A stretch of 64,000 nucleotides of DNA from Candidatus Altimarinota bacterium (GTDB taxonomy: Bacteria; Patescibacteriota; Gracilibacteria; UBA4473): NCBI GenBank assembly GCA_018608565.1, contig JABAZT010000023.1, positions 901 to 64,900 on the forward strand. Direction: 5' to 3'. The notes beneath the pieces were generated by a model. That model was not told the DNA's origin. It made no database searches and saw only the letters and a list, made by a program, of their open reading frames with translations. Shown here piece after piece: positions 4,404 through 46,893 of this stretch (position 1 is its first letter; each line of letters starts with the position of its first letter). The translations under genes were made by a program, and so were the position numbers.

Positions 4404-4426
4404 GATCAGATTTCTCAGATTATCAC

Positions 4427-10237: not shown

Positions 10238-11566
10238 ATGAATAAAAAAATATTTTGTATTGTATGGGCTGGGCTACTTCTCTTTGGAGGAGGAGTTTCA
10301 GCTATAGAGGTAGATCCAATACATCTAGTGTTTGAAAATAGTAAAATAACACTTGATTTTGATCGTCAGCCACAACTACTCCAGACAGAGCATCAACACT
10401 ATCTGGTTATAGGGAATACACGAATGCCAGTTGATCTAGAAGGAACATTAGTAGCTAAGGAAAATCCATTCTTTGGATCTATTGAAACAGAGTTTCAGAG
10501 TAAGTTGTCAGTCGAAGGATTTATGAGTTTTTTAGAAGCATCAGGGATCCTCGCTGCAGGAAATGTAGAATCAGTAAAAATACACAAAGATGAATCTGGG
10601 AAATTTTATTTTGACGGAGTTCCACAATCCGGATTTAAAACAGATTATCCAAAACTAATAAATCTTCTCAATAATGCTTTGATCAAAGGAGAAAAATATG
10701 TGAGAGTGCCGGGAGAAAAACAATTTTCTCGTATTGCCGTTTCTCCTGAACTTGAGGAAAAAGGAGTAAGAGAAGTGGTAGCCCAGGGAGAATCAAATTT
10801 TCGAGGGTCATCAAATGCACGACGTCAAAATATTCGAGTAGCAGCAGATAGATTTAGCGGAGTTTTGATTCCAAAAGGAGAAACTTTTTCTTTTAATGAA
10901 ATTCTCAAAGACGTAGAAGAAGAAGATGGATTTGTGAAAGAGCTAGTCATAAAAGGAAACAAAACAGAAAAAGAATTGGGAGGTGGCGTCTGTCAGGTTT
11001 CAACTACCGTCTATAGAGCTGCACTCAATGGAGGATTTCCAATCACCTCAAGAAGAAATCATTCATATGCTGTGCCGTATTATAAGCCTTACGGGCTTGA
11101 TGCGACGATTTACATCGGAGTACAGGATTTTGAATTTACCAATGACACTCCTGGCGATGTATTGCTTCAGGCATACATGGAAGGGGATAATTTGCATTTC
11201 ATACTCTACGGAACAAAAGATGATCGAACCGTAATGCTCGAAGGTCCCGTCATCTCTAACTACAAAAAAGCACCACCACCAATAGTCCTCGAAACTGAAG
11301 ATTTACTACCTGGAAAAACAGAGGTTGTCTCCACCGCACATGATGGGTTCACTACTCAGTGGGTACGAAAAGTAGAAAAAAATGGAGAGATAAAAACAGA
11401 TACCATATCATCTTATTATAGGCCATGGCCAGCCCAAATCCTCAAAGGAAAAGTAGAGACTGAGGAGTCACTCGTACAAGCAGATCGAAACGTGATCAAT
11501 CCAATTCGAAGGATTCGAAAAATAGGAAATCCAAGCCAGAATGATCTATCAAATTTGGTAAACTAA
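10238..11566 (+). CDS. VanW family protein (secreted or membrane-anchored)
   Basis: N-terminal signal-like 'IFCIVWAGLLLFGGGVSA'. VanW core 'GGGVCQVSTTVYRAALNGGFPITSRRNHSYAVPYY'. Confidence 0.8.
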   Translation: MNKKIFCIVWAGLLLFGGGVSAIEVDPIHLVFENSKITLDFDRQPQLLQTEHQHYLVIGNTRMPVDLEGTLVAKENPFFGSIETEFQSKLSVEGFMSFLEASGILAAGNVESVKIHKDESGKFYFDGVPQSGFKTDYPKLINLLNNALIKGEKYVRVPGEKQFSRIAVSPELEEKGVREVVAQGESNFRGSSNARRQNIRVAADRFSGVLIPKGETFSFNEILKDVEEEDGFVKELVIKGNKTEKELGGGVCQVSTTVYRAALNGGFPITSRRNHSYAVPYYKPYGLDATIYIGVQDFEFTNDTPGDVLLQAYMEGDNLHFILYGTKDDRTVMLEGPVISNYKKAPPPIVLETEDLLPGKTEVVSTAHDGFTTQWVRKVEKNGEIKTDTISSYYRPWPAQILKGKVETEESLVQADRNVINPIRRIRKIGNPSQNDLSNLVN

Positions 11567-11576
11567 TCTCCCTCTC

Positions 11577-13436
11577 GTGAAAAAGATATTACAATGGAAT
11601 TGGAATCGTATAGGACTTATAGCAAGCCTGTTTCTATACGTAATAATATTATCATTGTATGTACCGAGTTATAGCGTGCATAAATGGATGTTGAGTCCCG
11701 TTGAGTTTTTTCAGCGAATATACGTAGTAGCATTACTTCTGATAATTATATGGCTTTTAATCCTTGGGATTATTTGGCTCATTGAGCGTAAGACAAAAAC
11801 TCCATTTGGTATTCTTCCGAAGTTAAGTTGGAGTTTTATAGCTTCAATCGTAGTCCTAAATCTACTCAGCTCGAGTCTTCCATTTGTAATTGGATGGGAT
11901 TCCTCCACTCATTATTTTCTGACCATAAAAGAGATAATAGAGAATAACTACTTTCGTTCGGGTATATATCCGTATCTAACAGAGTTAGTACTGGGAGGAA
12001 TTGGAAAACTAGTTGGATTTGAGGCAACACCAACAATACTGCTTATGAGTGGAGTATTAGTATTCTTATATGGTCTTCAGCGATGGTGCCAATCACTAAA
12101 AATAACAAAACAACTCAGCTCAATACTGATAGTAACTTTGTTCATGATTCCGGCGGTGCAATTTCAGTTTCTTAGAGATATAAAGCTCGATATTCTCCTT
12201 ACTGGAATAATTCTTTTGGGGGTAACCGCCTGGTATGAAAAAAAATACATAAAAGCAGCAATTTTTATCGGAATATCACCACTTATAAAGATAACAACGC
12301 TCTGGTTTTTGGGGTGTTTTGGGTTGTTCTTATTAGTTTTATGGATCACTAAAAAAGACAGAAAAAAAATAGGACTCACCTTGATGATTTTAGTCATCCC
12401 TCTCTTGTGTTGGGGGAGTTGGAATATTGTTCGAAGTGACACAAAAATAACAACGAAGAATATCGTATCATTATTCATCAAAGGGCAAAAGAGAGATCCA
12501 AAACTAAACCTCAAACTACCACCTTCGGAGGGGAAAGAAATCCAAAAAATAAAATCGTCCACGCCCAAAACAAAAAGACCAAAGCGAACCGGTTTTTCCG
12601 AAGAAGTTGAACGATATGGCGGGTGGAGTCACAATCCATTTAAGCGGTTTTACACGATACTAACCAGTAAATATATCGTCAACGGTGGGACGTACTACAC
12701 AAATCTTTCGGTGCTTTGGTTATGGTTCTTTCTTGTTGGGCTCGCGTTGCCGTTCTATAGAGATTTCAAGAAACAGTCACAAGAGCATCTCTGGATTTAT
12801 GGAACCTTAGTCATAGGAGTATTTGTCTGGGGATATGTCGGGGAAGGAGTTGCTTGGTATGGATTTCCGATATTAATTCCATTGATGATAATGGTGTGCG
12901 CGAATCTAAGATCAAAAATTCCTTCAAAAATACTCTATACCATATTGGGAATTCCATTGTTTCTAGGAATTACAACATGGATGAATTATTATGATTTACG
13001 ACATATAGCGGTCACCATGCAGTGGTGGAAAAATCCAACAATAGAAACTAAAAAATCCATTGAATCTAGATTTTTTAGATTAGAGATGGAAGTTGGTGAA
13101 TTTCTCAATACAAACTATAGAGAAGGAGATATTACCTGGTGGGTGGGGACTATGGTCGGGATCTACGTAGATCAATATGACGAACGAATGGTCAAAGACG
13201 ATCAACTTGATCGTTGGACTCAGATGGTCCATGGTCGAACAAACGAAGAAATCCTAAGACTTCTAAAACAAAATAATATTAGATGGTTTTTGGTAGATAA
13301 CTCCACCCCTGGGCTAGAGATAAATCGAAACGGAACCCTGCACCAAAAATATAACGCCTTCAAAACATTCCTCGAAGAAAATACCACAATAGCCCTAGAA
13401 AATAAGAAAATGAGAGTGTATAAATTAAAAGACTAA
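11577..13436 (+). CDS. Polytopic membrane protein, possibly a GT-C fold glycosyltransferase (ArnT/PMT-like); function uncertain
   Basis: 619 aa with more than 10 hydrophobic segments, a Lys-rich loop (aa ~300-340) and a soluble C-terminal domain. The family assignment rests on overall architecture only. Confidence 0.5.
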   Translation: MKKILQWNWNRIGLIASLFLYVIILSLYVPSYSVHKWMLSPVEFFQRIYVVALLLIIIWLLILGIIWLIERKTKTPFGILPKLSWSFIASIVVLNLLSSSLPFVIGWDSSTHYFLTIKEIIENNYFRSGIYPYLTELVLGGIGKLVGFEATPTILLMSGVLVFLYGLQRWCQSLKITKQLSSILIVTLFMIPAVQFQFLRDIKLDILLTGIILLGVTAWYEKKYIKAAIFIGISPLIKITTLWFLGCFGLFLLVLWITKKDRKKIGLTLMILVIPLLCWGSWNIVRSDTKITTKNIVSLFIKGQKRDPKLNLKLPPSEGKEIQKIKSSTPKTKRPKRTGFSEEVERYGGWSHNPFKRFYTILTSKYIVNGGTYYTNLSVLWLWFFLVGLALPFYRDFKKQSQEHLWIYGTLVIGVFVWGYVGEGVAWYGFPILIPLMIMVCANLRSKIPSKILYTILGIPLFLGITTWMNYYDLRHIAVTMQWWKNPTIETKKSIESRFFRLEMEVGEFLNTNYREGDITWWVGTMVGIYVDQYDERMVKDDQLDRWTQMVHGRTNEEILRLLKQNNIRWFLVDNSTPGLEINRNGTLHQKYNAFKTFLEENTTIALENKKMRVYKLKD

Positions 13437-16637: not shown

Positions 16638-19600
16638 TTATCGAAGTAGCATTTTCCCAACTGCAACTTTTTTACCACCAATTACCACACTCACACTATC
16701 AGCCGAATTTCGAACGATTCGAGACGGAGCTCGCTTTGAAGTTTGACTTGGTCGATACATATAGGATTTGTTTCCTGCGATTCGTTGGTATCGAGCATTC
16801 ATGACAGTGGCATGTTGTTTTTCGGCCGTGTCTTTCGTAGCAATTTCTATGATTTTAGCCTGCTTTGTTTCTGTCTCAGGGATATTTTGGTATCGATTTT
16901 TGATCATCCAGTATCGAGATTCAAAAGCCGTCTGAGCACTTGGCTCAGTGATATCTTCTATCGGCGTATTGATCTTCACGATATTACGAATCGTTCCTCC
17001 ACGGTATTTGATCGTGTTCACATATCGTTTTCCTACTTTTTGAAGAGGAAGTCTTCCAGGCATATAGCCTCGAAAAACTTCAAATCCATTTTCGTTTTCG
17101 TAGAAGAGTACTTTTCCTGCAACTCCTTTATTCATTGTTTGAGCATGTCTCATGGATTCGGTATAGGTCATTCCATTTCGATTGAGGATTCGAAATTGTT
17201 CACGGGTCATGCCTGGAAATCGAAGATTTGTTTTTCCATTAGCTGGACCTTGTTCCACTCCGACTCGAGAAGATCCAGAAGCAAAATTTTGTGTTCGACC
17301 AAATGTAACAGCGCGAGGAGTACCTCCTTGAGTTTCTGAATTTTCAGCAGAGTGGCTAAATCCCAAATTACCAGAGCCTTTAACCAGATATGTATTATTT
17401 CCCTCAAAGTTAAAAATAACATCTGGGTTATTGGACCTAATCGATCGAATACGACCAAAACTGGTAACCGTAAATCCATCAGCATGAGGGGTAACTGTTA
17501 CTTCTCCCGTATCAGCCTCTACAAAAATTAAACTTGCCTCATCATCTCCGTCTGTAGTCTGAAACATAACATCCGTCGAAATTACAATCGGCTCATTACC
17601 AGTTTGGAGCTGGTGTGGATTCGTAATGAGAGCAAGGGACTTATTTCTCAGTACGTCGTCCAGTTCTACATGGACATTTTCTTTTTCTAGATAGTGGTTG
17701 AAGTTATACCAAGAGACAATGTAATCTCGTTGCTTTCGGAGAATAAGTTCATAGTTTCCGTTTTCATCAGTCGTAGTAGAACATACGAAAGAACCAACTA
17801 AACAAGTATCGTTATAGGTTGGAATTCCCTGTACGGTAGCTCCTTTGAGTGGTTTTCCTATTTCATCAAAAATAGTTCCATAAATACCAACCGTATAGAG
17901 CTGTGTATAGATAAATTCTGGGCCAGAAAGGTTCCCCGCTTTATCTCTCACATCCAACACCCTAAATGTATATGGATCATCACTTGGGATAGGGAGTGAG
18001 GGCGTATAGATAGGACCATTTACAGTATTGTTTTCAAGGGTTCCGAATGTTGGATGATCCCACTGAACGTCGTAGTTTCGAATCCCTGAAACACGATCAG
18101 CCGCACTTGTATTTGGGTCAGATTCTCCTGACCAGTCATAAAAGGCATTTCGTCGATGTTTAAACTGAAAATGTTCAGCGCCTTTCCCATCCAAAATTTC
18201 AGTTGGGAGTGTTGGATTAGTTTTATCAAAAATAACTTTAGATCCATCAGTCGTTCCTGTCACACTCATGAATACATTTCCGGCTTCGTCTTTAATATCG
18301 ATAGAAAAGGTGACTGTTCCTTCTACTCCATCGGCATTTAACATTTCATAGGACCATTCTCTTAGGTTGGCAGTATTTCCTTCTGGTGTCGTACAAGTGC
18401 TTCCTGTAAGCCCTTCATCAACCATAGTAATAGCCTGACCAAAGAAAGTCCCAGTCGGAGGATTTGCCAGAGAATCTACATAATCACAAAGCTCAAACTC
18501 AAAATTTATCGTGTCTCCCATTCGAGCATAATACGTAGGTAAATCTCCAAGGAAAGCCGTAAAATCTTGACTCGTTGCCTCAATCTCTACATCCGAGACG
18601 ATCGGGTCAGTTCGATCAAATTGAACCTGAGAAGCGTCATCTACCGCCGTTTTATTGGTGGCATTGTTTCCGGCTTCATCCTGGATTCCAATTCGAAACG
18701 GAACCACCACTTCCGAGGTCTCAGTTCCATCCGTAAACCGTTCAATTGAGCTAGCTCCTACCGCCCCGATGGTAGATCCAGTAACTGACATATTGAGAAT
18801 ATGACTATTGCCTCGGAGCGTTACCGTAGGACTAAGATTATCAGCTGTTATGAAATCTACAGTGATAGTATCATTGGTTTTGGCCAGCGTCGTATCGAGT
18901 ACATTATTAGAAATAATACTCGATCCAGTGATAGTAGGCGCCGTGGTATCAGATTGGATAACTCCGGCGATCAGTGCATTGATATCTCCTTGTACTACGG
19001 TCGTAGTGTTCCCCGCTCGATCAACAATCGTGAAGTTGGCACTCCCAACACTAATCGCTCCGTTATCTCCATTTGCTACCGTAAAGATCAGACTATCACT
19101 CGTAGTGAAGCTTGGAAGATCAACTTCCTGGGTAAGTGTTGTAATATTGGTTCCAGTAGTGGCACTCCCAAGAGTATCAAGGCGAACATCTTCATCAAAA
19201 CCAAGCGTATAGGTAACCGTGTCACCAGATTTGGCCCAGGCAGGATTGGCATTGGCCGAAGCGCGTGAAGCACTATCAATAGTCGGAGCTGTCGTATCAA
19301 TCGTTACGGTTGGAGTTGGAGCTCCAGCCACAAATCCAGTCATTGCCTGTGCCTGAAAATCTTCGAAATCAATGGCGGTAATATTGATCGCACCATCTTC
19401 TCCAGCCAGAGCATAGGTCGTGGTATAGGTTGTCTTTTTCGTCGTCGACTGAGCTTGAGTTAAATCCGCGGTAATTCCTGTAGTAGTCCCAATATCAAAG
19501 GTGATCTGTCCCGTTCCAGCACCTGGACCGTTGAATGAATCAGCGGCACTAAGTGTAAGAGTAAAAGTGAGTGTGCTCGTTGCATTTCCATAACTTGAGT

Positions 19601-20654
19601 CAAACGCGTTATCCGAAACCACTCCAATACTACTAAAGACTGGAGCGGTTACGTCTATATTTAGGTCATTCCCACTCACGGAAACAGTCTCGTTCCCGGC
19701 TTTGTCCACTACTTTTACACAAACAAAATTTCCATTATTGCCTTCAGTATTAAACGTAATCGGAACTCCAGACATAAACGAATTCCCAAACGTGGCGCCT
19801 GTTACACAGGCCGCCGCACTTGCTACGAATCCATATTCAGCACTATCTACATTTGTTTCTGTCACGGTAATCGTCACATCATCTGACGTAGTAGGGCCAG
19901 CATCTACATCATCGGTAAATACAACTCCTGGAGCCGTAGTATCGACTATAATCGAGTCAGATAGAGTAGTAGAAAATCCAGTCATCATATTTCCGACTTG
20001 ATCGGTAACTGTATCAGAAGTGAGAGCAACGGTTCCATTTTCTGCGCCAACGGTAAAGGTTCGATTTCGTGTCGTTACAGGAGTAGTTGAACTCGTAAAA
20101 TTTCCACTAGAAGTTCCAGTGCCTCCAATAGAGAAATTAATATGACTTCCAGATCCTATCGTATCAGTAGGATTTATATTCAATGTGAAATAAATTTTTT
20201 CGCCACTCGCAAGATAAAAATTTCCATCTCCATGTACCGATTTAGCTCCACCACCACTTGTTTGTGCTTGGACCGTCAAACTATCAAATGCAGGGGGCGT
20301 TACATCTATATTGAGATCATTTCCACTCAATAGATAGGTAAACCCATCAGAAGGTTCACTTACACGAACACAGAGATAATCTCCGTTATTCGCTTCACTT
20401 GAGATACTAAAAGAAACGCCTGAAACAAAGAGAGTTCCAAAAGAATCCGAAACATCACAAATTGCATCCGCACTAAAACCATACTCAGTAGCAGTAATAT
20501 CCCCATCAATATCCGTTGCAGATATTTCAATCGTATCACTAGAGACTGGTCCGGCATCTACATCTTGTGTAAATGAAACGACGGGACTTGCCGCATGTGT
20601 CTGAGTAAAGAATAGAAAACTAAGAGATAATAGTGCCAGAAATACTTTTTGCAT
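16638..20654 (-). CDS. Giant secreted surface protein (1338 aa) with repeated Ig-like modules and a carboxypeptidase-regulatory-like domain
   Basis: Signal peptide 'MQKVFLALLSLSFLFFTQTHA'. Recurrent module boundaries 'D(V/T)T(A/P)P' appear at least 6 times. 'GTIFDEIGKPLKGATVQGIP...TTTDENGNYEL' resembles the CarboxypepD_reg fold. The protein is Thr/Ser/Asp-rich. Confidence 0.8.
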   Translation of the reverse strand: MQKVFLALLSLSFLFFTQTHAASPVVSFTQDVDAGPVSSDTIEISATDIDGDITATEYGFSADAICDVSDSFGTLFVSGVSFSISSEANNGDYLCVRVSEPSDGFTYLLSGNDLNIDVTPPAFDSLTVQAQTSGGGAKSVHGDGNFYLASGEKIYFTLNINPTDTIGSGSHINFSIGGTGTSSGNFTSSTTPVTTRNRTFTVGAENGTVALTSDTVTDQVGNMMTGFSTTLSDSIIVDTTAPGVVFTDDVDAGPTTSDDVTITVTETNVDSAEYGFVASAAACVTGATFGNSFMSGVPITFNTEGNNGNFVCVKVVDKAGNETVSVSGNDLNIDVTAPVFSSIGVVSDNAFDSSYGNATSTLTFTLTLSAADSFNGPGAGTGQITFDIGTTTGITADLTQAQSTTKKTTYTTTYALAGEDGAINITAIDFEDFQAQAMTGFVAGAPTPTVTIDTTAPTIDSASRASANANPAWAKSGDTVTYTLGFDEDVRLDTLGSATTGTNITTLTQEVDLPSFTTSDSLIFTVANGDNGAISVGSANFTIVDRAGNTTTVVQGDINALIAGVIQSDTTAPTITGSSIISNNVLDTTLAKTNDTITVDFITADNLSPTVTLRGNSHILNMSVTGSTIGAVGASSIERFTDGTETSEVVVPFRIGIQDEAGNNATNKTAVDDASQVQFDRTDPIVSDVEIEATSQDFTAFLGDLPTYYARMGDTINFEFELCDYVDSLANPPTGTFFGQAITMVDEGLTGSTCTTPEGNTANLREWSYEMLNADGVEGTVTFSIDIKDEAGNVFMSVTGTTDGSKVIFDKTNPTLPTEILDGKGAEHFQFKHRRNAFYDWSGESDPNTSAADRVSGIRNYDVQWDHPTFGTLENNTVNGPIYTPSLPIPSDDPYTFRVLDVRDKAGNLSGPEFIYTQLYTVGIYGTIFDEIGKPLKGATVQGIPTYNDTCLVGSFVCSTTTDENGNYELILRKQRDYIVSWYNFNHYLEKENVHVELDDVLRNKSLALITNPHQLQTGNEPIVISTDVMFQTTDGDDEASLIFVEADTGEVTVTPHADGFTVTSFGRIRSIRSNNPDVIFNFEGNNTYLVKGSGNLGFSHSAENSETQGGTPRAVTFGRTQNFASGSSRVGVEQGPANGKTNLRFPGMTREQFRILNRNGMTYTESMRHAQTMNKGVAGKVLFYENENGFEVFRGYMPGRLPLQKVGKRYVNTIKYRGGTIRNIVKINTPIEDITEPSAQTAFESRYWMIKNRYQNIPETETKQAKIIEIATKDTAEKQHATVMNARYQRIAGNKSYMYRPSQTSKRAPSRIVRNSADSVSVVIGGKKVAVGKMLLR
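19635..19925 (-). repeat. Internal duplicated ~97-aa module, copy 2 (aa 244-340 of the surface protein)
   Basis: 'VVFTDDVDAGPTTSDDVTITVTE...EYGFVASAAACV...GNDLNIDVTAPVF'. The module ends are also similar at the nucleotide level (gttacatctatattgagatcatttccactca vs gttacgtctatatttaggtcattcccactca). Confidence 0.8.
20286..20582 (-). repeat. Internal duplicated ~99-aa module, copy 1 (aa 25-123 of the surface protein)
   Basis: 'VVSFTQDVDAGPVSSDTIEISATD...EYGFSADAICD...GNDLNIDVTPPAF' aligns with copy 2 along its whole length. Confidence 0.8.
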
Positions 20655-21681: not shown

Positions 21682-22686
21682 TTAGTCACGGTATTTTGGA
21701 ACGGGTACGACTGGTGCATTCAAAAGATTAGTTCGATCCAAATATAAAAATCTATTTCGGAGTGTTTGCCTCCAAGCTGATTTATGTTCAAATTCCATTG
21801 ATTCAAATTCAGTACCACTCACATATTCTATCGCGCCCATATCATCTAGAAGATCTTTCTGAGTTTCTATTTCCTCTATCAATACATCAGAAATTCGTGA
21901 GAAACTGACCGGTCTAAGTAATGGTGTTTTTCTGTTGTTTCTATGTTTTTGCAAGAATACTTCAAGAAGACTAAGCGACTGGAGTGTTCGAAACTGTTCT
22001 TCGATAAGATAGTCTTGATAAAAGAATTTTTCATCAGGTTGGAGTATTCGATCAAGAGGTACAATATTATGTACAAACTCAGTTTCAAAGGGATGAATTA
22101 CGCCATGTTTTTCTTCAAAAATAGAACGTGTTGTTCTGGGTTTGTTAGTTGTGTTTTCTATAAAAAATTCAGTTCTTCCTGCGACAAAGGCAACATGTGT
22201 CTGCGGTACAAACTGAGGAAATTCTAGAAGTGTTTCTTTAAAATTAGAATATTTATACAGACCTCCCAGTAGTCCTATAGGATAGGCTTCTTGGTCAAGT
22301 GCAGCATAGAGAGATTCAAAATGATCGATACGATCTTCATAGTGATTAAGTCGGAAACTATTATCTCGTTGAAACTCAGATTCGTTTAGTTCCCAGATGG
22401 TCTCAAGATATGCCTTATTTTCTTTTTTAATCTGTATAGTCCAAGCGTTTCCAAACGTAGGGGTTCCAAAACGTCCTGCCATCATCCGATTAAAAAACAT
22501 AGCACAGTGACTTTCGTCTTCACTTATAGCGGAAGCGGCCTTATCCATATAAGACTGGTAGGTTGGATCAGAGAGTGGAACCTGGATTGGGATTTTAGAG
22601 AGAATAGTTTCGGGAGGAGAAACCTCCATTGCAAATGTTTCAGAGAGAGAGAATGGAATCAGGAGCGCCAACAAAAGAAAATGCAT
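21682..22686 (-). CDS. Secreted hypothetical protein
   Basis: Signal-like 'MHFLLLALLIPFSLSETFA'. 334 aa, no family recognised. Confidence 0.6.
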   Translation of the reverse strand: MHFLLLALLIPFSLSETFAMEVSPPETILSKIPIQVPLSDPTYQSYMDKAASAISEDESHCAMFFNRMMAGRFGTPTFGNAWTIQIKKENKAYLETIWELNESEFQRDNSFRLNHYEDRIDHFESLYAALDQEAYPIGLLGGLYKYSNFKETLLEFPQFVPQTHVAFVAGRTEFFIENTTNKPRTTRSIFEEKHGVIHPFETEFVHNIVPLDRILQPDEKFFYQDYLIEEQFRTLQSLSLLEVFLQKHRNNRKTPLLRPVSFSRISDVLIEEIETQKDLLDDMGAIEYVSGTEFESMEFEHKSAWRQTLRNRFLYLDRTNLLNAPVVPVPKYRD

Positions 22687-22744: not shown

Positions 22745-25123
22745 TTAAATAAACTTCTTGAGATTGCTTAATTGCTTCTGACTCAGAACCCCTAAGAGTT
22801 CCTTATCACTTGCACTTCGGATTCCTGATACGGATTCAAATTTCATCATCAGTTCTTTCTTAGTCTTTGGTCCAATGCCGGGAATTTCATCCAGTATAGA
22901 TCGAGTAGCATCTTTGGATCGTTTGGCACGATTGGCCCCAATAGCAAATCTATGAGACTCATCTCGTATTCGTTGGAGTAGTTTGAGCGCACTAGATTCG
23001 TAGGGAAGCTCTATGGGTTCATCATTTTTTCCAGGACGAAAGATTTGTTCCTCCCGTTTTGCCAGCGCAATGATCTGTGTCTGTGGGTCAAATCCTTCAG
23101 GAATTTGAACAATACCTTCCTCAAAAATCTTCATAACTGTACTCAGTTGGCCTTTCCCACCATCAAGAAGAATTAGGTCAGGGGTTTCCCACTTTGCTTT
23201 TTTCTGGACAAGTTTTTTTCCTAATGGGACATCAGTTTCAGAGCTTCCGTCTCCGTTCCATAGACCTTCTTCATACCCTATTTGTTGATAAAAATCAGAG
23301 GCTTCTTTAGTAGAATTTATAAGTATTTTATTTCGTTCTTCTTGAATGCAGTAATCTTCTACTAGTTCAATTGCCCGAGCCCCAAATCCTTGCTTTTGTT
23401 TATCTTTTCGTATGGCAAATACCCTAATTATCATTGTTTTTTTTCCTTTGCGATCAAGACGGATTGAGCCAATTACTTTATCTTCATGGATGAAGACTAT
23501 TTGTGTATTTTTTTTCTTAGTTTCATCGGGGAAATTTGGATCGTACTTTATATGAGGTAAGTACCGATCAAAGACTTCTGTCTTTCGGATTTCATGATAC
23601 GCTTCGAGTTCTTCCTCCGTCTCAACGGGTTTCATGATTAATCCCTCTAAATCTTCCTTTTCCCCCAGGGGATTCTCTCTTGTGCTAGTCGCACAATTTA
23701 CCTTAAGCAAGGAAGACTTTTCTCCCTCCTTGTTAACGGAGGGGGGAGGGGAGGATTCCATTCGTCCAAATCTTCGTTCCAGTACTTCCTTCATCGAAGC
23801 ATAATCATCAATCTTTCCTGGGGGAAGTGATTTGATATTGTATTTTCGATATTCACTATTCTTCGGTTGCCCATCTATGAAAACTACCTGAGATGCCACG
23901 GGAAACTGTCCGGATAGATGAGAAACATCAAATCCCTCAATTCTTCTGGGAGGAATCTCAAATCCAAGTGCTTGAGCTAGTTCTGGGAGAGCCTTCGCAA
24001 AATTTTCCTCCTGACTCATTTTTTCAATTTTCTGTTTTTCACAAAAATTTTTCGCATTGATATGTGCAATATCAAGCGCTTTTTTCTTATCTCCAATCTG
24101 AGGAGTTATGATCGATACGGTTGTTTGGCGCCCAGTCAGTTGACCCTCAAAAAGATCCAATAAGTAGGATTGAATATCTTCCGTGTTCTCAAGTTCACAG
24201 GGGATATAGATTTCTCGTGGAAGTTCATCAACTTTTTCATAAAATTGTAGTAAAAATCCTTCCATGACTTCTGCGTCAGATTCAAATTCTTCAGCCGAAA
24301 AGACAACCTCATTTTGGTCACGGAGTTTTCCTCCACGGAAGGTGAGCCGAACAAAATAGGCTTTATTATTGTGTCTCACAAAACTAATAAAATCTCGATC
24401 CAGACAGTCGGTAAACTCTACATTTTGTTTAATAGTACTTTTGTCGATAGAGAGTACGAGATCACGTATTTTCGCAGCAGCCTCAAAATTTTTATCTGCA
24501 GCAAATTGCATCATTTTTACTTGCAATTCCTTTACAACTTCACTGGTTTGACCTTTTAAAAAGCGTTTCATTCGGTCAATGTTTGATCGGTATTCTTCTG
24601 GGCTTATGGTTTCAGCTGAAACAATATTGAGATAGTAGTCTTGTCCTGGTTTTACCATTCGAGCGCCAAAATGTTTCTGACAAAACCGAACAGTTTCCCG
24701 AAACTCCTTACTCGAAGTTTTGGGACCAATATAGGTCGCTCCATCTCGTTTGAGTTTCCGTACAATTTCAAGCTTTGGTTCCTCAGCCTTGGTAATTCGG
24801 AGATAAATAAAGTTCTTATCATCCCTCAGGAGTACATTGTATCTCGGCATATGTTCTTTTATGAGATTATTTTCGAGGATAAGTGCCTCAATCTCAGAAG
24901 AAACAATTCGAGTCTCTATTCGTCGTATTTTTTTCACCATCACTTTTATTCGTGTGGATTCATGTTCTTTTTGAAAGTAGTTTGAAACCCGCTTTCGTAA
25001 GTTCTTTGCTTTCCCTACATAAAGAAGATCATTATCTTCTCCATAGTACATATAACATCCGCTATCGGTGGGGATATCTTTTGGTTTAAATTTAAATTCA
25101 GGTGTTTCTTTTTTTTCAGACAT
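22745..25123 (-). CDS. uvrC: Excinuclease ABC subunit C (UvrC) carrying an internal GNAT acetyltransferase-like insertion
   Basis: GIY-YIG 'CYMYYGEDNDLLYVGKAKNLRKRVSNYF', UVR-like 'FEAAAKIRD', 'RIEGFDVSHLSG', 'LILLDGGKGQL' and C-terminal HhH 'IPGIGPKTKKEL'. The protein is 792 aa, whereas the UvrC proteins I know are about 600 aa. The extra ~191 aa (nt 23186-23758) contain GNAT motif A 'VFAIRKDKQKQGFGARAIELVEDYC'. Confidence 0.9.
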   Translation of the reverse strand: MSEKKETPEFKFKPKDIPTDSGCYMYYGEDNDLLYVGKAKNLRKRVSNYFQKEHESTRIKVMVKKIRRIETRIVSSEIEALILENNLIKEHMPRYNVLLRDDKNFIYLRITKAEEPKLEIVRKLKRDGATYIGPKTSSKEFRETVRFCQKHFGARMVKPGQDYYLNIVSAETISPEEYRSNIDRMKRFLKGQTSEVVKELQVKMMQFAADKNFEAAAKIRDLVLSIDKSTIKQNVEFTDCLDRDFISFVRHNNKAYFVRLTFRGGKLRDQNEVVFSAEEFESDAEVMEGFLLQFYEKVDELPREIYIPCELENTEDIQSYLLDLFEGQLTGRQTTVSIITPQIGDKKKALDIAHINAKNFCEKQKIEKMSQEENFAKALPELAQALGFEIPPRRIEGFDVSHLSGQFPVASQVVFIDGQPKNSEYRKYNIKSLPPGKIDDYASMKEVLERRFGRMESSPPPSVNKEGEKSSLLKVNCATSTRENPLGEKEDLEGLIMKPVETEEELEAYHEIRKTEVFDRYLPHIKYDPNFPDETKKKNTQIVFIHEDKVIGSIRLDRKGKKTMIIRVFAIRKDKQKQGFGARAIELVEDYCIQEERNKILINSTKEASDFYQQIGYEEGLWNGDGSSETDVPLGKKLVQKKAKWETPDLILLDGGKGQLSTVMKIFEEGIVQIPEGFDPQTQIIALAKREEQIFRPGKNDEPIELPYESSALKLLQRIRDESHRFAIGANRAKRSKDATRSILDEIPGIGPKTKKELMMKFESVSGIRSASDKELLGVLSQKQLSNLKKFI

Positions 25124-32951: not shown

Positions 32952-33542
32952 ATGTTTACTGGAATTATTGAGCAAATCGGAATCATAAAAAAAATAGAAG
33001 GAAATCTATTTACAATATCACATTCTTTTGAGGAAGGATTTGAAATAGGAGAATCCATAGCACTCAACGGAATGTGTGGAACAATACTTGGGTTTGATAA
33101 AAATACATTCTTCATAGAAATCATAGAAGAGTCACGACGATTGACGACATTTGGAGGTGCGAAGGAGGAAGATCCGGTAAATCTAGAGCGTGCAGCAATC
33201 ATCGGAGGAAGAAACTCAGGACACAATGTTACCGGGCATATTGATCAGACAGGAGAAATAGAAAAACTAGAACGATCAGGGGATTACTGGCTAATCCGTA
33301 TTGTGATCGATTCACAAAATAGAAAGCTCGTAGTACACAAAGGATCAATAGCTTTAGAGGGTATTTCTCTAACGGTTTCTGGGGTTTCTGAGATCAAAGA
33401 GAGTCAAGCTTGGTTTGAGGTCTCGATCATCTCCCATACATGGGAAGTGACAAACCTAAATACAAAAAAAATAGGAAGTCCTATGAATTTAGAGTTTGAT
33501 ATCTATGGGAAATACGTGATAAATAAGATAGAAGATGAATAA
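32952..33542 (+). CDS. ribE: Riboflavin synthase (alpha chain)
   Basis: 'MFTGIIEQIGIIKKIE' and the internal repeat 'SIALNGMCGT' / 'SIALEGISLT' are typical of the two-barrel riboflavin synthase. Confidence 0.9.
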   Translation: MFTGIIEQIGIIKKIEGNLFTISHSFEEGFEIGESIALNGMCGTILGFDKNTFFIEIIEESRRLTTFGGAKEEDPVNLERAAIIGGRNSGHNVTGHIDQTGEIEKLERSGDYWLIRIVIDSQNRKLVVHKGSIALEGISLTVSGVSEIKESQAWFEVSIISHTWEVTNLNTKKIGSPMNLEFDIYGKYVINKIEDE

Positions 33543-34557
33543 ATTTCTCCAGCGAGCATTCGAAATCGCATCACAAGTAGATCCGCACTCTGTTACCCCC
33601 AATCCTCGGGTAGGATGTGTGATTGTGAGAAATGGAGCAATCGTGGAAGAAGGTGTACATGAAAAATTTGGTGGAGGACATGCAGAAGTAAATGCTATTG
33701 AAAATTTACAGAAGTCCCCCTTGTCAAAGGGGGATTTAGGGGGATTTCTCTCCGACTGCCAAGTCTATGTGACATTAGAGCCTTGTGATTGTTTCTCTGG
33801 AAAGAAAACAGGGGCGTGTGTGGATTTACTGATTAAATACAAACCAAAGAAGGTTGTTATTGGATCGCTTGATCCAACGTTTGGAGGGCGAAGTGTGAAC
33901 AAAATGGAAAAAGCAGGAATTCTCATAGAGATGCCAACCGCTAACAGCCAAAAGCTACAAGCAGACTTGAATCCCTTCTTTGATCACTATCAAAAAAATA
34001 AAAAACCCGGGATCACACTTAAGATTGGACAATCACTCGATGGAAAAATAACAGGAGGCAATCCATATATAACGAATCAGTCATCACTCAAAAAAGTGCA
34101 TCAGATGCGAGCGGCCTATTCCGTGATCTTGACCACAACAGAAACCGTACTAGAGGATGATCCTCGGCTTGATACTCGGTTTGATATGGGAACCAATGCC
34201 GACATTATCATCCTTGGAAAACGAGAAATTCCCGAAACGGCTAAAATTTGGCAGATCGAAAATAGAAACATTCATCAGTTTGCGACATTGGATGAATTTT
34301 TAGAAAGTGAAATTTACACACAAATAGACTCGATCATGACTGAAAGCGGGGCTGAGATGAATACGCTCTTGGTTGATCGAGGAATGGTAGATCAGATTGA
34401 TTTTTTTGTTGCTCCACAGATTATCGGAAATACAGAAAAACAGAACTTTGAAAAAGAAATAAATTTAGAAGACTTTCAGCTGAGAGTAAGCGAATCACGA
34501 GAAGGCGATTTGTGGTTACAATATATAAAAAATACTACAAAGACTCCTTCAGTTTAA
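33535..34557 (+). CDS. ribD: Bifunctional riboflavin biosynthesis protein RibD (pyrimidine deaminase / uracil reductase)
   Basis: Deaminase 'GGGHAEVNAI' ... 'YVTLEPC'. A reductase half follows ('ITLKIGQSLDGKI', 'VILTTTETVLEDDPRL'). It overlaps ribE by 8 nt and contains a 10-codon GC-rich insert (see findings). Confidence 0.85.
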   Translation: MNKFLQRAFEIASQVDPHSVTPNPRVGCVIVRNGAIVEEGVHEKFGGGHAEVNAIENLQKSPLSKGDLGGFLSDCQVYVTLEPCDCFSGKKTGACVDLLIKYKPKKVVIGSLDPTFGGRSVNKMEKAGILIEMPTANSQKLQADLNPFFDHYQKNKKPGITLKIGQSLDGKITGGNPYITNQSSLKKVHQMRAAYSVILTTTETVLEDDPRLDTRFDMGTNADIIILGKREIPETAKIWQIENRNIHQFATLDEFLESEIYTQIDSIMTESGAEMNTLLVDRGMVDQIDFFVAPQIIGNTEKQNFEKEINLEDFQLRVSESREGDLWLQYIKNTTKTPSV

Positions 34558-43408: not shown

Positions 43409-43483
43409 TCCCGAGTAGCTCAGTGGTAGAGCAGTTGGCTGTTAACCAACTTGTCGTCGGTTCAAATCCGACCTCGGGAGCCA
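43409..43483 (+). tRNA. tRNA-Asn (anticodon GTT), with encoded CCA
   Basis: A full cloverleaf was folded by hand. Acceptor TCCCGAG/CTCGGGA, D-arm GCTC-AGTGGTA-GAGC, anticodon arm GTTGG-CTGTTAA-CCAAC, variable loop TTGTC, T-arm GTCGG-TTCAAAT-CCGAC, discriminator G, CCA. Confidence 0.95.
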
Positions 43484-46876: not shown

Positions 46877-46893
46877 TTACCTAAATCTACCAA

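What the first reader, a model, noticed from the sequence alone, without database searches (positions are those of the whole stretch)
23186..23758. GNAT acetyltransferase-like domain inserted inside the UvrC nuclease
The ORF has every canonical UvrC module in the normal order but is 792 aa long. Between 'DDYASMKEVLERRFGRM' and 'TPDLILLDGGKGQL', the UvrC proteins I know have only about 10-15 residues. This gene has about 191.

The core of the insert (aa ~496-622, nt ~23258-23638) reads as a GNAT fold:
- A beta-strand 'IIRVFAIRKDKQKQGFGARAIELVEDYC' carrying the Q/R-x-x-G-x-G/A acetyl-CoA motif A.
- 'ILINSTKEASDFYQQIGY', which fits motif B.

The insert is joined by low-complexity linkers ('SSPPPSVNKEGEKS', 'NPLGEKEDLEGL') that contain GC-rich palindromes. 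I am not aware of a UvrC with an acyltransferase domain embedded in its 3'-incision half. It could couple nucleotide-excision repair to acetyl-CoA status, or acetylate a repair partner or substrate.
Basis: partly seen in the sequence, partly recalled or inferred. Interest (0 to 1): 0.7.

Follow-up and report, generated by a model that had tools for sequence, protein, structure and literature searches.

The report
Acetyltransferase domain nested inside UvrC nuclease
The DNA-repair nuclease UvrC of this candidate-phyla-radiation bacterium really does carry a complete, conserved acetyltransferase domain spliced into a surface loop of its 5'-cutting domain, and in related bacteria the same loop holds other enzyme domains, so it looks like a tolerant landing site rather than a proven new repair mechanism.

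Summary
The minus-strand ORF 22745-25123 (792 aa) is a full UvrC. Relative to solved UvrC structures it has 189 extra residues (aa 455-643) in the C-terminal RNase H-like domain, between helix alpha1 (DDYASM...RRFGR) and strand beta4 (PDLILLDGGKGQ).

- Residues 495-640 are a GNAT domain: Pfam hits above gathering scores, AlphaFold pLDDT 94.8, and TM about 0.8 to solved GNATs.
- The acetyl-CoA motif (Q576-x-x-G579-x-G581) and Y612 are kept.
- Residues 455-494 are a disordered linker encoded by hairpin-rich DNA.

It is not an artefact. About 30 independent assemblies of Gracilibacteria-type genomes carry the same architecture in conserved synteny. The GNAT has co-diverged with its UvrC host and is under purifying selection.

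Orthologous uvrC genes carry other things in the same loop: a second GNAT type, a DUF559 nuclease bounded by hairpin terminal repeats, an aminoglycoside-nucleotidyltransferase-like domain, hairpin-only inserts, or nothing. The same GNAT family also occurs free-standing beside transporters and nested in isoleucyl-tRNA synthetase.

Best reading: an autonomous, probably active acetyltransferase lodged in a permissive loop. A role in repair is untested. No publication describing it was found.

The parts
22745..25123 (-). uvrC ORF, 792 aa plus TAA stop. A complete UvrC with a nested domain.
   Evidence: ORF. (TIGR00194, 495.7 bits against a cut-off of 285). (orthologs).
24836..25060 (-). GIY-YIG 3'-incision nuclease domain (aa 22-96). 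Y24, Y35, R45, E84 and N96 are invariant.
   Evidence: PF01541, E 4e-12. (30 of 30 conserved). (1YD6 match).
24440..24541 (-). UVR (UvrB-binding) motif, aa 195-228.
   Evidence: PF02151, 23.4 bits against a cut-off of 21.5.
24038..24400 (-). Non-catalytic RNase H-like domain (PF22920), aa 242-362.
   Evidence: E 1e-23. (strands 243-276).
23762..23974 (-). N-terminal part of the catalytic RNase H/Endo V-like 5'-incision domain, aa 384-454 (beta1-3 and helix alpha1). Holds D399, H402 and D439-D440.
   Evidence: PF08459, profile positions 2-77. (aligns to 2NRT residues 7-81). (residues invariant, except D439 in 29 of 30).
23642..23761 (-). Linker aa 455-494 (MESSPPPSVNKEGEKS...NPLGEKEDLEG). It is predicted disordered and is encoded by nested GC-rich hairpins. 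It is absent from the closest relatives P0002 and P0003.
   Evidence: pLDDT below 50 for 457-491. (hairpins, z = -2.3). (relatives lack it). (first hairpin resembles one in the uvrC-junction insert of P0050; local score 37, no shuffle control run).
23204..23641 (-). GNAT acyl-CoA N-acyltransferase domain ("type A"), aa 495-640, with the full beta1-alpha1-alpha2-beta2-4-alpha3-beta5-alpha4-beta6-7 fold.
   Evidence: three Pfam GNAT models above gathering. (pLDDT 94.8, pTM 0.87). (5JPH TM 0.79-0.81; 8IYM and GCN5 about 0.7). (GCN5, E 1.6e-9).
23381..23398 (-). GNAT motif A / acetyl-CoA pyrophosphate loop, Q576-K-Q-G579-F-G581.
   Evidence: sequence. (Q in 29 of 30, G in 28 of 30, G in 29 of 30).
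23288..23293 (-). F611-Y612 of motif B. Y612 is the candidate general acid.
   Evidence: invariant in 30 of 30.
23186..23203 (-). Short connector aa 641-646 (KKAKWE). It is probably the remnant of the original loop; compare KKFAEKF in insert-less relatives.
   Evidence: comparison of junction peptides. This is an inference.
22919..23185 (-). C-terminal part of the catalytic RNase H/Endo V-like domain, aa 647-735 (beta4 onward). Holds D654-G-G-K-G-Q and H724.
   Evidence: aligns to 2NRT residues 81 onward. (strand 650-654). (invariant).
22748..22918 (-). (HhH)2 DNA-binding domain, aa 736-792.
   Evidence: HHH_5, E 1.6e-4, below gathering. (2NRT alignment runs through aa 785). (helices).

Best explanation
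**What it is (shown).** The gene is the organism's ordinary chromosomal uvrC. Its product is a complete, probably functional UvrC. A whole GNAT acyl-CoA N-acyltransferase domain (aa 495-640), preceded by a 40-aa disordered linker, is nested in the loop between helix alpha1 and strand beta4 of the RNase H/Endo V-like 5'-incision domain. The GNAT is intact, old, vertically inherited with uvrC and under purifying selection. The same loop in orthologous uvrC genes holds other inserts.

**Why the loop tolerates it (inferred).** In the canonical RNase H topology, helix alpha1 runs away from the active site and strand beta4 runs back towards it. The loop between them therefore sits at the pole opposite the catalytic site, where bulky insertions can be tolerated.

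**How it most likely works (inferred).**
- The GNAT binds acetyl-CoA through Q576-x-x-G579-x-G581 and uses Y612 as general acid.
- It acts as an autonomous acetyltransferase on its family's usual acceptor, which is unknown but possibly a small molecule or a protein amine.
- UvrC mainly serves as a permissive, constitutively expressed scaffold.
- The domain arrived by in-frame insertion of a formerly free-standing gene into a loop that repeatedly accepts inserts, and it was then retained.
- Its activity is not required for the incision chemistry.
For: **Architecture and fold.**
- Pfam and NCBIfam hits.
- AlphaFold models. In the full protein the linker 457-491 has pLDDT below 50, the GNAT has 85-93, and the host strand resumes at 650-654. 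The GNAT modelled alone gives pLDDT 94.8.
- Foldseek. The full model matches UvrC C-terminal halves 2NRT and 8B0Q across the insert, and also matches GNATs. The GNAT alone matches 5JPH with TM 0.8.
- The junction in solved UvrCs has 0-6 residues.

**Host UvrC intact.** GIY-YIG residues, D399, D440, D654 and H724 are invariant in 30 of 30 proteins.

**GNAT intact and constrained.**
- Motif A, N603, F611 and Y612 are conserved.
- The GNAT's pairwise identities correlate with those of the UvrC core: Mantel r = 0.69, reached by 0 of 5000 permutations. Correlations between core domains are 0.76-0.77.
- dN/dS is 0.29 for the GNAT against 0.09 for the core in the pair P0027/P0030.

**Real and orthologous.**
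- About 30 clusters from the NCBI, JGI, ENA and Logan collections, including contigs of 1.3 Mb.
- Conserved YggT-DUF5665<->uvrC synteny.

**The loop is a hot spot.**
- Other contents: GNAT type B, a tandem A+B, DUF559, an NTase and low-complexity inserts.
- Sister proteins P0027 (GNAT) and P0099 (DUF559) are 82-85% identical in the core and have sharp swap boundaries.
- The DUF559 cassettes carry hairpin terminal inverted repeats.
- A hairpin-only insert occupies the same junction in P0050.

**The module is promiscuous and not tied to repair.**
- 450 relatives at E <= 1e-10, mostly free-standing proteins of about 150 aa.
- The nearest, P0121, lies beside an EamA exporter, a HAD hydrolase and an MFS transporter.
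- The family is also nested in IleRS and fused to GrpB and Pol-beta NTases.
Against: - No enzymatic or binding data exist, and the acceptor substrate is unknown.
- Long retention specifically inside uvrC, with co-divergence, could equally mean a repair-linked role. By Rosetta-stone logic a fusion can signal a functional link.
- The closest solved relatives include protein acetyltransferases (GCN5/PCAF, HP0935), which would suit a protein target in the repair complex.
- The relative orientation of the GNAT and UvrC domains is not resolved (pTM 0.42).
- No terminal repeats or other insertion scars flank the window's GNAT, so the insertion route is inferred from other cassettes.
- The small-molecule context rests on a single free-standing locus.
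- The window's own copy has N at the otherwise conserved K623.
Confidence: 0.6

Rival explanations
1. **Repair-coupled acetylation.** The GNAT is a functional accessory of excision repair. Tethered to UvrC at the damage site, it acetylates UvrB, UvrC itself, an HU-like nucleoid protein or another partner, or it modifies the lesion or DNA. This would tune incision, turnover or access, possibly according to acetyl-CoA level.
For: - The domain has stayed inside uvrC over deep divergence (44-69% identity), co-diverging with it and under purifying selection.
- The best solved relatives include protein lysine acetyltransferases GCN5/PCAF and HP0935.
- Two of the alternative inserts have nucleic-acid or nucleotide chemistry (DUF559 nuclease, nucleotidyltransferase), so the loop could be a slot for repair accessories.
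- From own knowledge: eukaryotic GCN5 assists excision repair by acetylating chromatin.
Against: - The same GNAT family is nested in IleRS and occurs free-standing beside transporters, with no repair neighbours.
- Close orthologs lack any insert or carry unrelated domains, so repair does not need it.
- The GCN5 catalytic Glu is not conserved; the aligned position is hydrophobic.
- No confident interface was predicted between the domains.
Confidence: 0.22
2. **Catalytically dead or exapted module.** The GNAT fold is kept as a structural spacer, interaction surface or CoA-sensing domain, without transferase activity.
For: - It evolves 2-3 times faster than the UvrC catalytic domains (mean pairwise identity 0.475 against about 0.70; dN 0.39 against 0.17).
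- Inserts at the same loop in Peribacteria have no detectable GNAT motifs. This shows the loop can hold non-enzymatic or degenerate inserts, as it does low-complexity spacers.
Against: - Motif A (Q, G, G), N603 and an invariant F611-Y612 are preserved in 26-30 of 30 sequences at only 33-51% identity. That is the pattern expected of an active GNAT.
- dN/dS is well below 1.
Confidence: 0.1
3. **Selfish in-frame cassette with no host benefit.** The GNAT would be cargo of a mobile element that persists because precise loss from an essential gene is rare.
For: - DUF559 cassettes at the same loop are bounded by terminal inverted repeats.
- GNAT and DUF559 are swapped at identical boundaries in close relatives.
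- Hairpin elements occur in frame in this lineage's genes, including the window's ribD.
Against: - No repeats or scars flank the window's GNAT or those of P0002 and P0003.
- Co-divergence with the host and conservation of catalytic motifs indicate long vertical inheritance under selection for the domain's own function.
- Insert-less relatives interleaved in the tree show that loss is possible.
Confidence: 0.05
4. **Artefact or removable element.** A chimeric assembly, a missed frameshift joining two genes, an intein, or an intron that is spliced out.
For: None beyond the unusual length. The GC-rich hairpins at the left junction could in principle cause assembly problems.
Against: - The same architecture appears at the same residue in about 30 independent assemblies from four data sources, in conserved synteny.
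- The reading frame is continuous, and the downstream half carries essential residues D654 and H724.
- No Hint or intein Pfam hit and no Rfam intron or ribozyme in the window.
- The insert is under purifying selection at the protein level.
Confidence: 0.01

Closest known systems
Canonical UvrC (E. coli; T. maritima structures 2NRT/2NRR and 1YD6; D. radiodurans 8B0Q)
   Same: - All modules are present in the normal order.
- TIGR00194 equivalog score is far above its cut-off.
- GIY-YIG and RNase H-like catalytic residues are invariant.
- The model superposes on the solved C-terminal half.
   Different: The catalytic RNase H-like domain is interrupted between alpha1 and beta4 by 189 residues that contain a whole GNAT domain. 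Solved UvrCs have 0-6 residues there.
Small free-standing bacterial GNATs (metagenomic P0121; solved SACOL1063 5JPH, L. plantarum 3EFA, H. pylori protein acetyltransferase HP0935 8IYM)
   Same: - Same fold (TM 0.7-0.8).
- Same motif A and the conserved Tyr.
- P0121 shares the family signature from end to end (E 3e-47).
   Different: Here the domain is nested inside another enzyme instead of being a separate protein. The substrate is unknown for this family as well.
GCN5/PCAF histone acetyltransferase domain
   Same: - Best sequence match among solved structures (E 1.6e-9) and close structural match.
- Eukaryotic GCN5 is recruited to UV damage (own knowledge), so the functional analogy is tempting.
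   Different: - The catalytic Glu of GCN5 aligns to a hydrophobic residue.
- No flanking PCAF or bromodomain modules.
- Similarity is at the level of the general GNAT core, so this is not a member of the GCN5 family.
Rickettsia palindromic elements and other intragenic MITEs (reviewed in PMC10969869)
   Same: Small hairpin-rich elements inserted in frame into housekeeping genes of a reduced genome. This matches three features seen here:
- the window's linker (23642-23761);
- the ribD hairpin (33716-33743);
- the hairpin-only insert in P0050's uvrC.
   Different: - The main insert is a complete enzymatic domain without terminal repeats.
- The linker has no second copy in the 64-kb window.
Lineage-specific insertional domains in RNA polymerase beta/beta' (BEAN/HABAS; PMC11515920)
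   Same: Nested, lineage-specific domains in surface loops of an essential housekeeping enzyme.
   Different: Those are non-enzymatic structural domains that are stable within a lineage. Here the inserts are enzymes of unrelated families and are exchanged between close relatives.
Inteins
   Same: In-frame insertions in essential genes. The DUF559 variants even carry a nuclease.
   Different: - No Hint or splicing domain.
- No splice-junction residues were evident in the sequence at either junction (by eye, not formally tested).
- The insert is evidently kept in the mature protein.

Membership tests
UvrC (excinuclease ABC subunit C, TIGR00194) | Equivalog HMM score above the curated cut-off. 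| tested here: met
   495.7 bits against a cut-off of 285.45.
UvrC (excinuclease ABC subunit C, TIGR00194) | N-terminal GIY-YIG nuclease with catalytic Tyr, Tyr, Arg, Glu and Asn. | tested here: met
   PF01541, E 4e-12. Y24, Y35, R45, E84 and N96 in 30 of 30.
UvrC (excinuclease ABC subunit C, TIGR00194) | C-terminal RNase H/Endo V-like nuclease with the Asp/Asp/His site, plus (HhH)2. | tested here: met
   PF08459, E 2e-45, and alignment to 2NRT through aa 785. D399, D440, D654 and H724 invariant. HHH_5 alone is below gathering.
UvrC (excinuclease ABC subunit C, TIGR00194) | Contiguous RNase H-like domain with a short alpha1-beta4 loop. | tested here: not met
   189 extra residues compared with 2NRT. 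This is the variant feature; it does not remove the protein from the family.
UvrC (excinuclease ABC subunit C, TIGR00194) | Dual incision with UvrA and UvrB. | not testable with these tools
   No uvrA or uvrB in the window. Biochemistry is needed.
GNAT acyl-CoA N-acyltransferase superfamily | Pfam GNAT models above gathering score. | tested here: met
   PF13673 46.1 bits (cut-off 23.6), PF00583 32.2 (20.7), PF13508 31.3 (27).
GNAT acyl-CoA N-acyltransferase superfamily | Characteristic mixed alpha/beta fold. | tested here: met
   pLDDT 94.8 with GNAT strand and helix order. TM 0.79-0.81 to 5JPH.
GNAT acyl-CoA N-acyltransferase superfamily | Motif A, Q/R-x-x-G-x-G/A (acetyl-CoA pyrophosphate binding). 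| tested here: met
   Q576-K-Q-G579-F-G581. Conserved in 28-29 of 30.
GNAT acyl-CoA N-acyltransferase superfamily | Acetyl-CoA binding and acyl transfer to an amine. | not testable with these tools
   Only the conservation of Y612 (30 of 30) and N603 (26 of 30) is shown.
GCN5/PCAF protein lysine acetyltransferases | Catalytic general-base Glu in beta4 (Tetrahymena GCN5 E122). | tested here: not met
   alignment: the position aligns to a hydrophobic residue in the family profile.
Aminoglycoside N-acetyltransferases AAC(6') | NCBIfam family score above cut-off. | tested here: not met
   14.6-18.4 bits against a cut-off of 265.
Inteins | Hint splicing domain and conserved splice-junction residues. 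| tested here: not met
   no Hint or intein family hit. The insert starts MESSPP and is followed by TPDL.
MITE / RPE-like in-frame palindromic element (for the linker 23642-23761 only) | Hairpin or terminal-repeat structure and multiple related copies. | tested here: inconclusive
   Hairpins are present, z = -2.3. No other copy in the window. A similar hairpin lies at the same junction of P0050's uvrC (local score 37, no shuffle control).
Anti-phage defence effectors (PADLOC) | Match to a defence-system protein model. | tested here: not met
   no hit for the GNAT or NTase inserts. Only weak nuclease-domain hits for DUF559.

The most novel reading that the evidence does not exclude
The alpha1-beta4 loop of UvrC in Gracilibacteria/Peribacteria-type CPR bacteria may be a landing pad for a so far undescribed kind of in-frame mobile cassette.

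- Hairpin-ended elements, some carrying a DUF559 PD-(D/E)xK nuclease, would insert into and exchange the coding sequence of an essential gene without splicing.
- Whole enzyme domains (GNAT types A and B, an ANT(2'')-like nucleotidyltransferase) would be delivered, swapped or domesticated there, and also in other housekeeping genes such as IleRS.
- The window's GNAT would then be a domesticated cargo, and its hairpin linker a later hit by the same element family.
Probability: 0.3. Interest if true: 0.8.

Novelty: new variant of a known kind. Interest (0 to 1): 0.6.

Why it matters
**For DNA repair.** UvrC is one of the most conserved repair enzymes, and no accessory catalytic domain inside its nuclease core was found described in six full-text searches.

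**For protein engineering.** The finding shows that the 5'-incision domain tolerates, and over long periods keeps, a complete second enzyme in one surface loop. That marks a natural permissive site for engineering UvrC.

**For CPR genome biology.**
- The same loop holds GNAT, DUF559 nuclease, nucleotidyltransferase or hairpin-only inserts in orthologous genes.
- The same GNAT is nested in IleRS.
- Together these suggest that tiny CPR genomes acquire or park enzymatic functions by in-frame insertion into housekeeping genes, partly through hairpin-ended mobile elements.

**If the GNAT acts on a repair partner.** It would be the first bacterial excision-repair nuclease with built-in acetylation.

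**For annotation.** Such nested GNAT and ANT-like domains could be miscounted as antibiotic-resistance genes in CPR surveys.

Tried and rejected
**Searches that gave little.**
- Searching the 5.8-billion-protein index with the GNAT module alone returned nothing, not even the parent protein. The exhaustive profile search replaced it.
- The genome-contig scan used generic UvrC peptide patterns and mostly returned distant phyla. Only L001, L002, L025 and L056 were informative.

**The window's linker as a repeated mobile element.** No second copy exists in the 64-kb window, and its fold z-score is modest.

**Terminal inverted repeats or flanking repeats around the GNAT.**
- None in the window, P0002 or P0003.
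- None for the NTase cassette or the Peribacteria inserts.
- A 16-nt flanking inverted repeat exists only in the P0027/P0030/P0099 clade.

**Conserved Met of "MKPVET" as a relic or internal start codon.** I rejected the relic idea, because the free-standing twin P0121 has Leu there after a 9-residue N-terminal extension and the IleRS insert has Ile. Use as an internal start was not tested.

**Peribacteria inserts as degenerate GNATs.** No Pfam hit, and hhalign probability below 2%. Left open.

**Other rivals rejected.**
- Intein, intron or ribozyme: no Hint hit, and Rfam found only one tRNA.
- Defence-system membership: no PADLOC hit for the GNAT or NTase inserts.
- Alternative genetic code 25: long ORFs are intact under table 11, although TGA ends only 2 of 40 long ORFs, and no suppressor tRNA is in the window.

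**Literature.** Six full-text searches found no description of a UvrC with GNAT, DUF559 or NTase inserts.


Full report
**1. The observation**

The minus-strand ORF 22745-25123 encodes a 792-aa protein.

Profile searches show every UvrC module in the normal order:
- GIY-YIG, aa 22-96.
- UVR, aa 195-228.
- Non-catalytic RNase H-like domain PF22920, aa 242-362.
- Catalytic UvrC_RNaseH_dom PF08459, reported as two matched stretches. The best is aa 384-459, matching profile positions 2-77.
- C-terminal HhH.

The NCBIfam UvrC equivalog scores 495.7 bits against a cut-off of 285.

Three Pfam GNAT models hit inside the gap, all above their gathering scores: Acetyltransf_10 (E 6e-12), Acetyltransf_1 and Acetyltransf_7.

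Against solved structures, window residue 454 and residue 644 both align to residue 81 of T. maritima UvrC (2NRT). That protein therefore has no residues where the window has 189. Structure 3C65 has about six. Close insert-less relatives read RRFARKDDKKFAEKFPDLIVI at this point.

**2. Structure**

An AlphaFold model was built from an alignment of 30 homologs (mean pLDDT 80.6). It shows:
- the host helix 440-453;
- a disordered stretch 457-491 (pLDDT below 50);
- a confident alpha/beta unit at 496-637;
- the host strand 650-654, after which the rest of the nuclease domain and the HhH helices follow.

The GNAT module modelled alone has pLDDT 94.8 and pTM 0.87, with the canonical GNAT order of strands and helices.

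Foldseek results:
- The full model matches the UvrC C-terminal halves 2NRT and 8B0Q over alignments that span the insert.
- The GNAT module matches SACOL1063 (5JPH, TM 0.79-0.81), 3EFA, the H. pylori protein acetyltransferase HP0935, and GCN5/PCAF (TM about 0.7).
- By sequence, the family profile's best solved hit is Tetrahymena GCN5 (E 1.6e-9). However, the GCN5 catalytic Glu aligns to a hydrophobic position, so this is GNAT-core similarity and not GCN5 membership.

In the RNase H topology, alpha1 starts at the active site (D439-D440) and beta4 ends at it (D654). The loop between them is therefore at the far pole. This is my inference for why the site is permissive.

**3. It is real, old and constrained**

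A search of 5.8 billion proteins found about 30 clusters with the same architecture at 44-69% identity. They come from the NCBI, JGI, ENA and Logan assemblies, include contigs of 1.3 Mb, and are named Candidatus Gracilibacteria where a name exists.

In every locus fetched except L092, uvrC lies close to and divergent from a DUF5665 gene. YggT follows in the window and in L084-L088 and L091, and a class A PBP follows in the window, L083, L084 and L088. L092 instead has a HicA/HicB pair upstream. These are therefore orthologous chromosomal uvrC genes.

In 30 aligned proteins:
- The GIY-YIG residues, D399, D440, D654 and H724 are invariant.
- GNAT motif A is kept: Q576 in 29 of 30, G579 in 28 of 30, G581 in 29 of 30.
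- N603 is kept in 26 of 30, and F611 and Y612 in 30 of 30.
- A family-specific W622-K623-G624 is kept. The window itself has N623.

GNAT pairwise identities correlate with UvrC-core identities (Mantel r = 0.69, reached by 0 of 5000 permutations). Correlations between core domains are 0.76-0.77.

Mean pairwise identity is 0.475 for the GNAT, 0.51 for the non-catalytic RNase H-like domain and about 0.70 for the catalytic domains.

Where dS is not saturated (P0027 against P0030), dN/dS is 0.29 for the GNAT and 0.09 for the core.

**4. The loop is a hot spot**

Among the 120 best UvrC relatives, the same junction holds:
- nothing;
- the window's GNAT type ("A");
- a second GNAT type ("B": P0029, P0056);
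- A and B in tandem (P0026, 361 aa);
- a DUF559 / Vsr-like PD-(D/E)xK nuclease (P0034, P0036, P0099; E 1e-24 to 1e-35);
- an aminoglycoside-2''-nucleotidyltransferase-like domain (P0054, P0086, and by insert length and sequence similarity the P0100-P0120 clade);
- K/E-rich or hairpin-encoded spacers of 40-120 aa.

A Patescibacteria MAG (L002) has a third GNAT type. Three Peribacteria loci have 142-164-aa inserts of unknown nature.

In a sample of other phyla the junction is short. A few low-complexity expansions reach 74 aa.

On a core-only neighbour-joining tree, insert types are patchy and interleaved with insert-less proteins. This tree is not robust.

Sister proteins P0027 (GNAT-A) and P0099 (DUF559) are 82-85% identical in the core. 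Their DNA is about 90% identical up to sharp boundaries, and between those boundaries the two cassettes are unrelated.

**5. How inserts get there**

The three DUF559 cassettes are bounded by hairpin-containing terminal inverted repeats. Local alignment scores are 38, 30 and 43, against shuffle maxima of 30, 22 and 20.

The termini of P0034 and P0036 are homologous to each other. They nearly match a solo hairpin that sits in frame in the window's ribD (33716-33743), which encodes KSPLSKGDLGGF between the HAE and PCxxC deaminase motifs.

That hairpin motif is ubiquitous in metagenomes. Contig GC ranged from 0.30 to 0.67, and only 8 of 125 matches lay inside long ORFs. In two loci, two inverted copies flank a free-standing DUF559 ORF.

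P0050, from a GNAT-less clade, has a 93-nt triple-hairpin insert at the uvrC junction. Its 3' hairpin resembles the first hairpin of the window's linker (local score 37, no shuffle control). The window's closest relatives lack that linker.

For the window's GNAT itself there are no flanking repeats. A cassette origin is therefore an inference. The in-frame palindromic elements of Rickettsia are the nearest described analogue (PMC10969869).

**6. What the GNAT family is**

An exhaustive profile search of 1.84 billion representative proteins gave 450 hits at E <= 1e-10. Most are free-standing proteins of about 150 aa that match from end to end.

- The closest, P0121 (E 3e-47), shares the family signature. 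It lies between an EamA exporter, a HAD hydrolase and an MFS transporter.
- The same family is nested inside IleRS together with a histidine-phosphatase domain (P0122, P0145).
- It is also fused to GrpB and Pol-beta nucleotidyltransferases.
- No NCBIfam functional family fits; the best hits, ArsN2 and RimI, are far below their cut-offs.
- There is no defence-system match.

**7. Interpretation**

*Shown:* an intact UvrC with a nested, intact, conserved GNAT in a loop that tolerates and repeatedly acquires inserts.

*Inferred (confidence about 0.6):* the GNAT is an active, autonomous acetyl-CoA-dependent transferase that uses UvrC as a scaffold and is not needed for incision.

*Rivals:* a repair-coupled acetyltransferase (about 0.22), an inactive or exapted module (about 0.1), a purely selfish cassette (about 0.05), and an artefact, intein or intron (about 0.01).

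Six full-text literature searches found no description of this architecture. Lineage-specific insertional domains in RNA polymerase (PMC11515920) are a general precedent.

I rate it a new variant of a known kind, with interest 0.6. The more novel reading is in-frame, hairpin-ended cassettes that deliver and swap enzyme domains in essential genes. I give that a probability of about 0.3.

Noticed in passing
window 33716-33743 (+), inside ORF 33532-34557 (RibD: deaminase plus RibD_C): A GC-rich hairpin, CCCCCTTGTCAAAGGGGGATTTAGGGGG, lies in frame between the HAEVNAI and YVTLEPC zinc motifs and adds about 12 residues (KSPLSKGDLGGF). It is nearly identical to the terminal repeats of the DUF559 cassettes in the uvrC genes of P0034 and P0036.
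   Followed up: partly
L081 7433-7447 and 7952-7966 (uvrC of P0099); the same sites in L082 and L087: A 15-16-nt inverted repeat (GATTTCGCGGGATTT / AAATCCCGCGAAATC) lies in the conserved host sequence immediately flanking the swapped GNAT or DUF559 cassette. It is perfect over 15 nt in L081 and has one mismatch in L082 and L087. It occurs only in this clade, and its role (recombination site, mRNA stem or something else) is unexplained.
   Followed up: partly
L081 (P0099), L092 (P0034), L093 (P0036): uvrC junction. Also L101 164-877 and L144 7675-8166.: DUF559 (Vsr-like nuclease) modules are bounded by hairpin terminal inverted repeats. This holds both when they are inserted in frame in uvrC and when they are free-standing in unrelated metagenome contigs. 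It suggests a hairpin-DUF559-hairpin mobile unit.
   Followed up: partly
L090 4001-8221 (P0122, 1406 aa); P0145 (895 aa): Isoleucyl-tRNA-synthetase-like proteins carry the same GNAT family, plus a histidine-phosphatase domain, nested inside the class I catalytic domain. This is a second housekeeping enzyme with nested enzymatic domains.
   Followed up: partly
P0082 aa 188-294 (UvrC relative): A DUF559 domain is inserted at a different UvrC site, between the GIY-YIG and UVR regions. It is flanked by hairpin-type peptides (PCPSPEGGGKKGEGE and SPSPQPSPGGSEGSE).
   Followed up: no
L081 about 6500 and L082 about 1040 (about codon 165 of uvrC): Another hairpin of the CCCCCTTG..AAAGGGGG type lies inside the N-terminal half of uvrC in P0099 and P0027.
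   Followed up: no
L001, L025, L056 (Peribacteria uvrC junction): Inserts of 142-164 aa sit at the same loop. They have no Pfam hit and no significant match to the GNAT-A profile. By eye they show a motif-B-like '...Y.E.LGF', but motif A is missing. They may be degenerate GNATs or another fold.
   Followed up: partly
whole window: Stop-codon usage of the 40 longest ORFs is TAA 22, TAG 16 and TGA 2. Long ORFs are intact under the standard code, so this Gracilibacteria-type genome does not appear to read TGA as Gly. TGA stops are nevertheless rare. Only one tRNA (Asn, 43409-43483) is present.
   Followed up: partly
window 4406-8614 (+), 11562-13436 (+), 46885-48540 (+), 21682-22686 (-): Several large ORFs (1402, 624, 551 and 334 aa) have no Pfam match at all. 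ORF 16638-20654 (-) encodes a 1338-aa repetitive protein that looks surface-exposed by eye; it was not scanned against Pfam.
   Followed up: no
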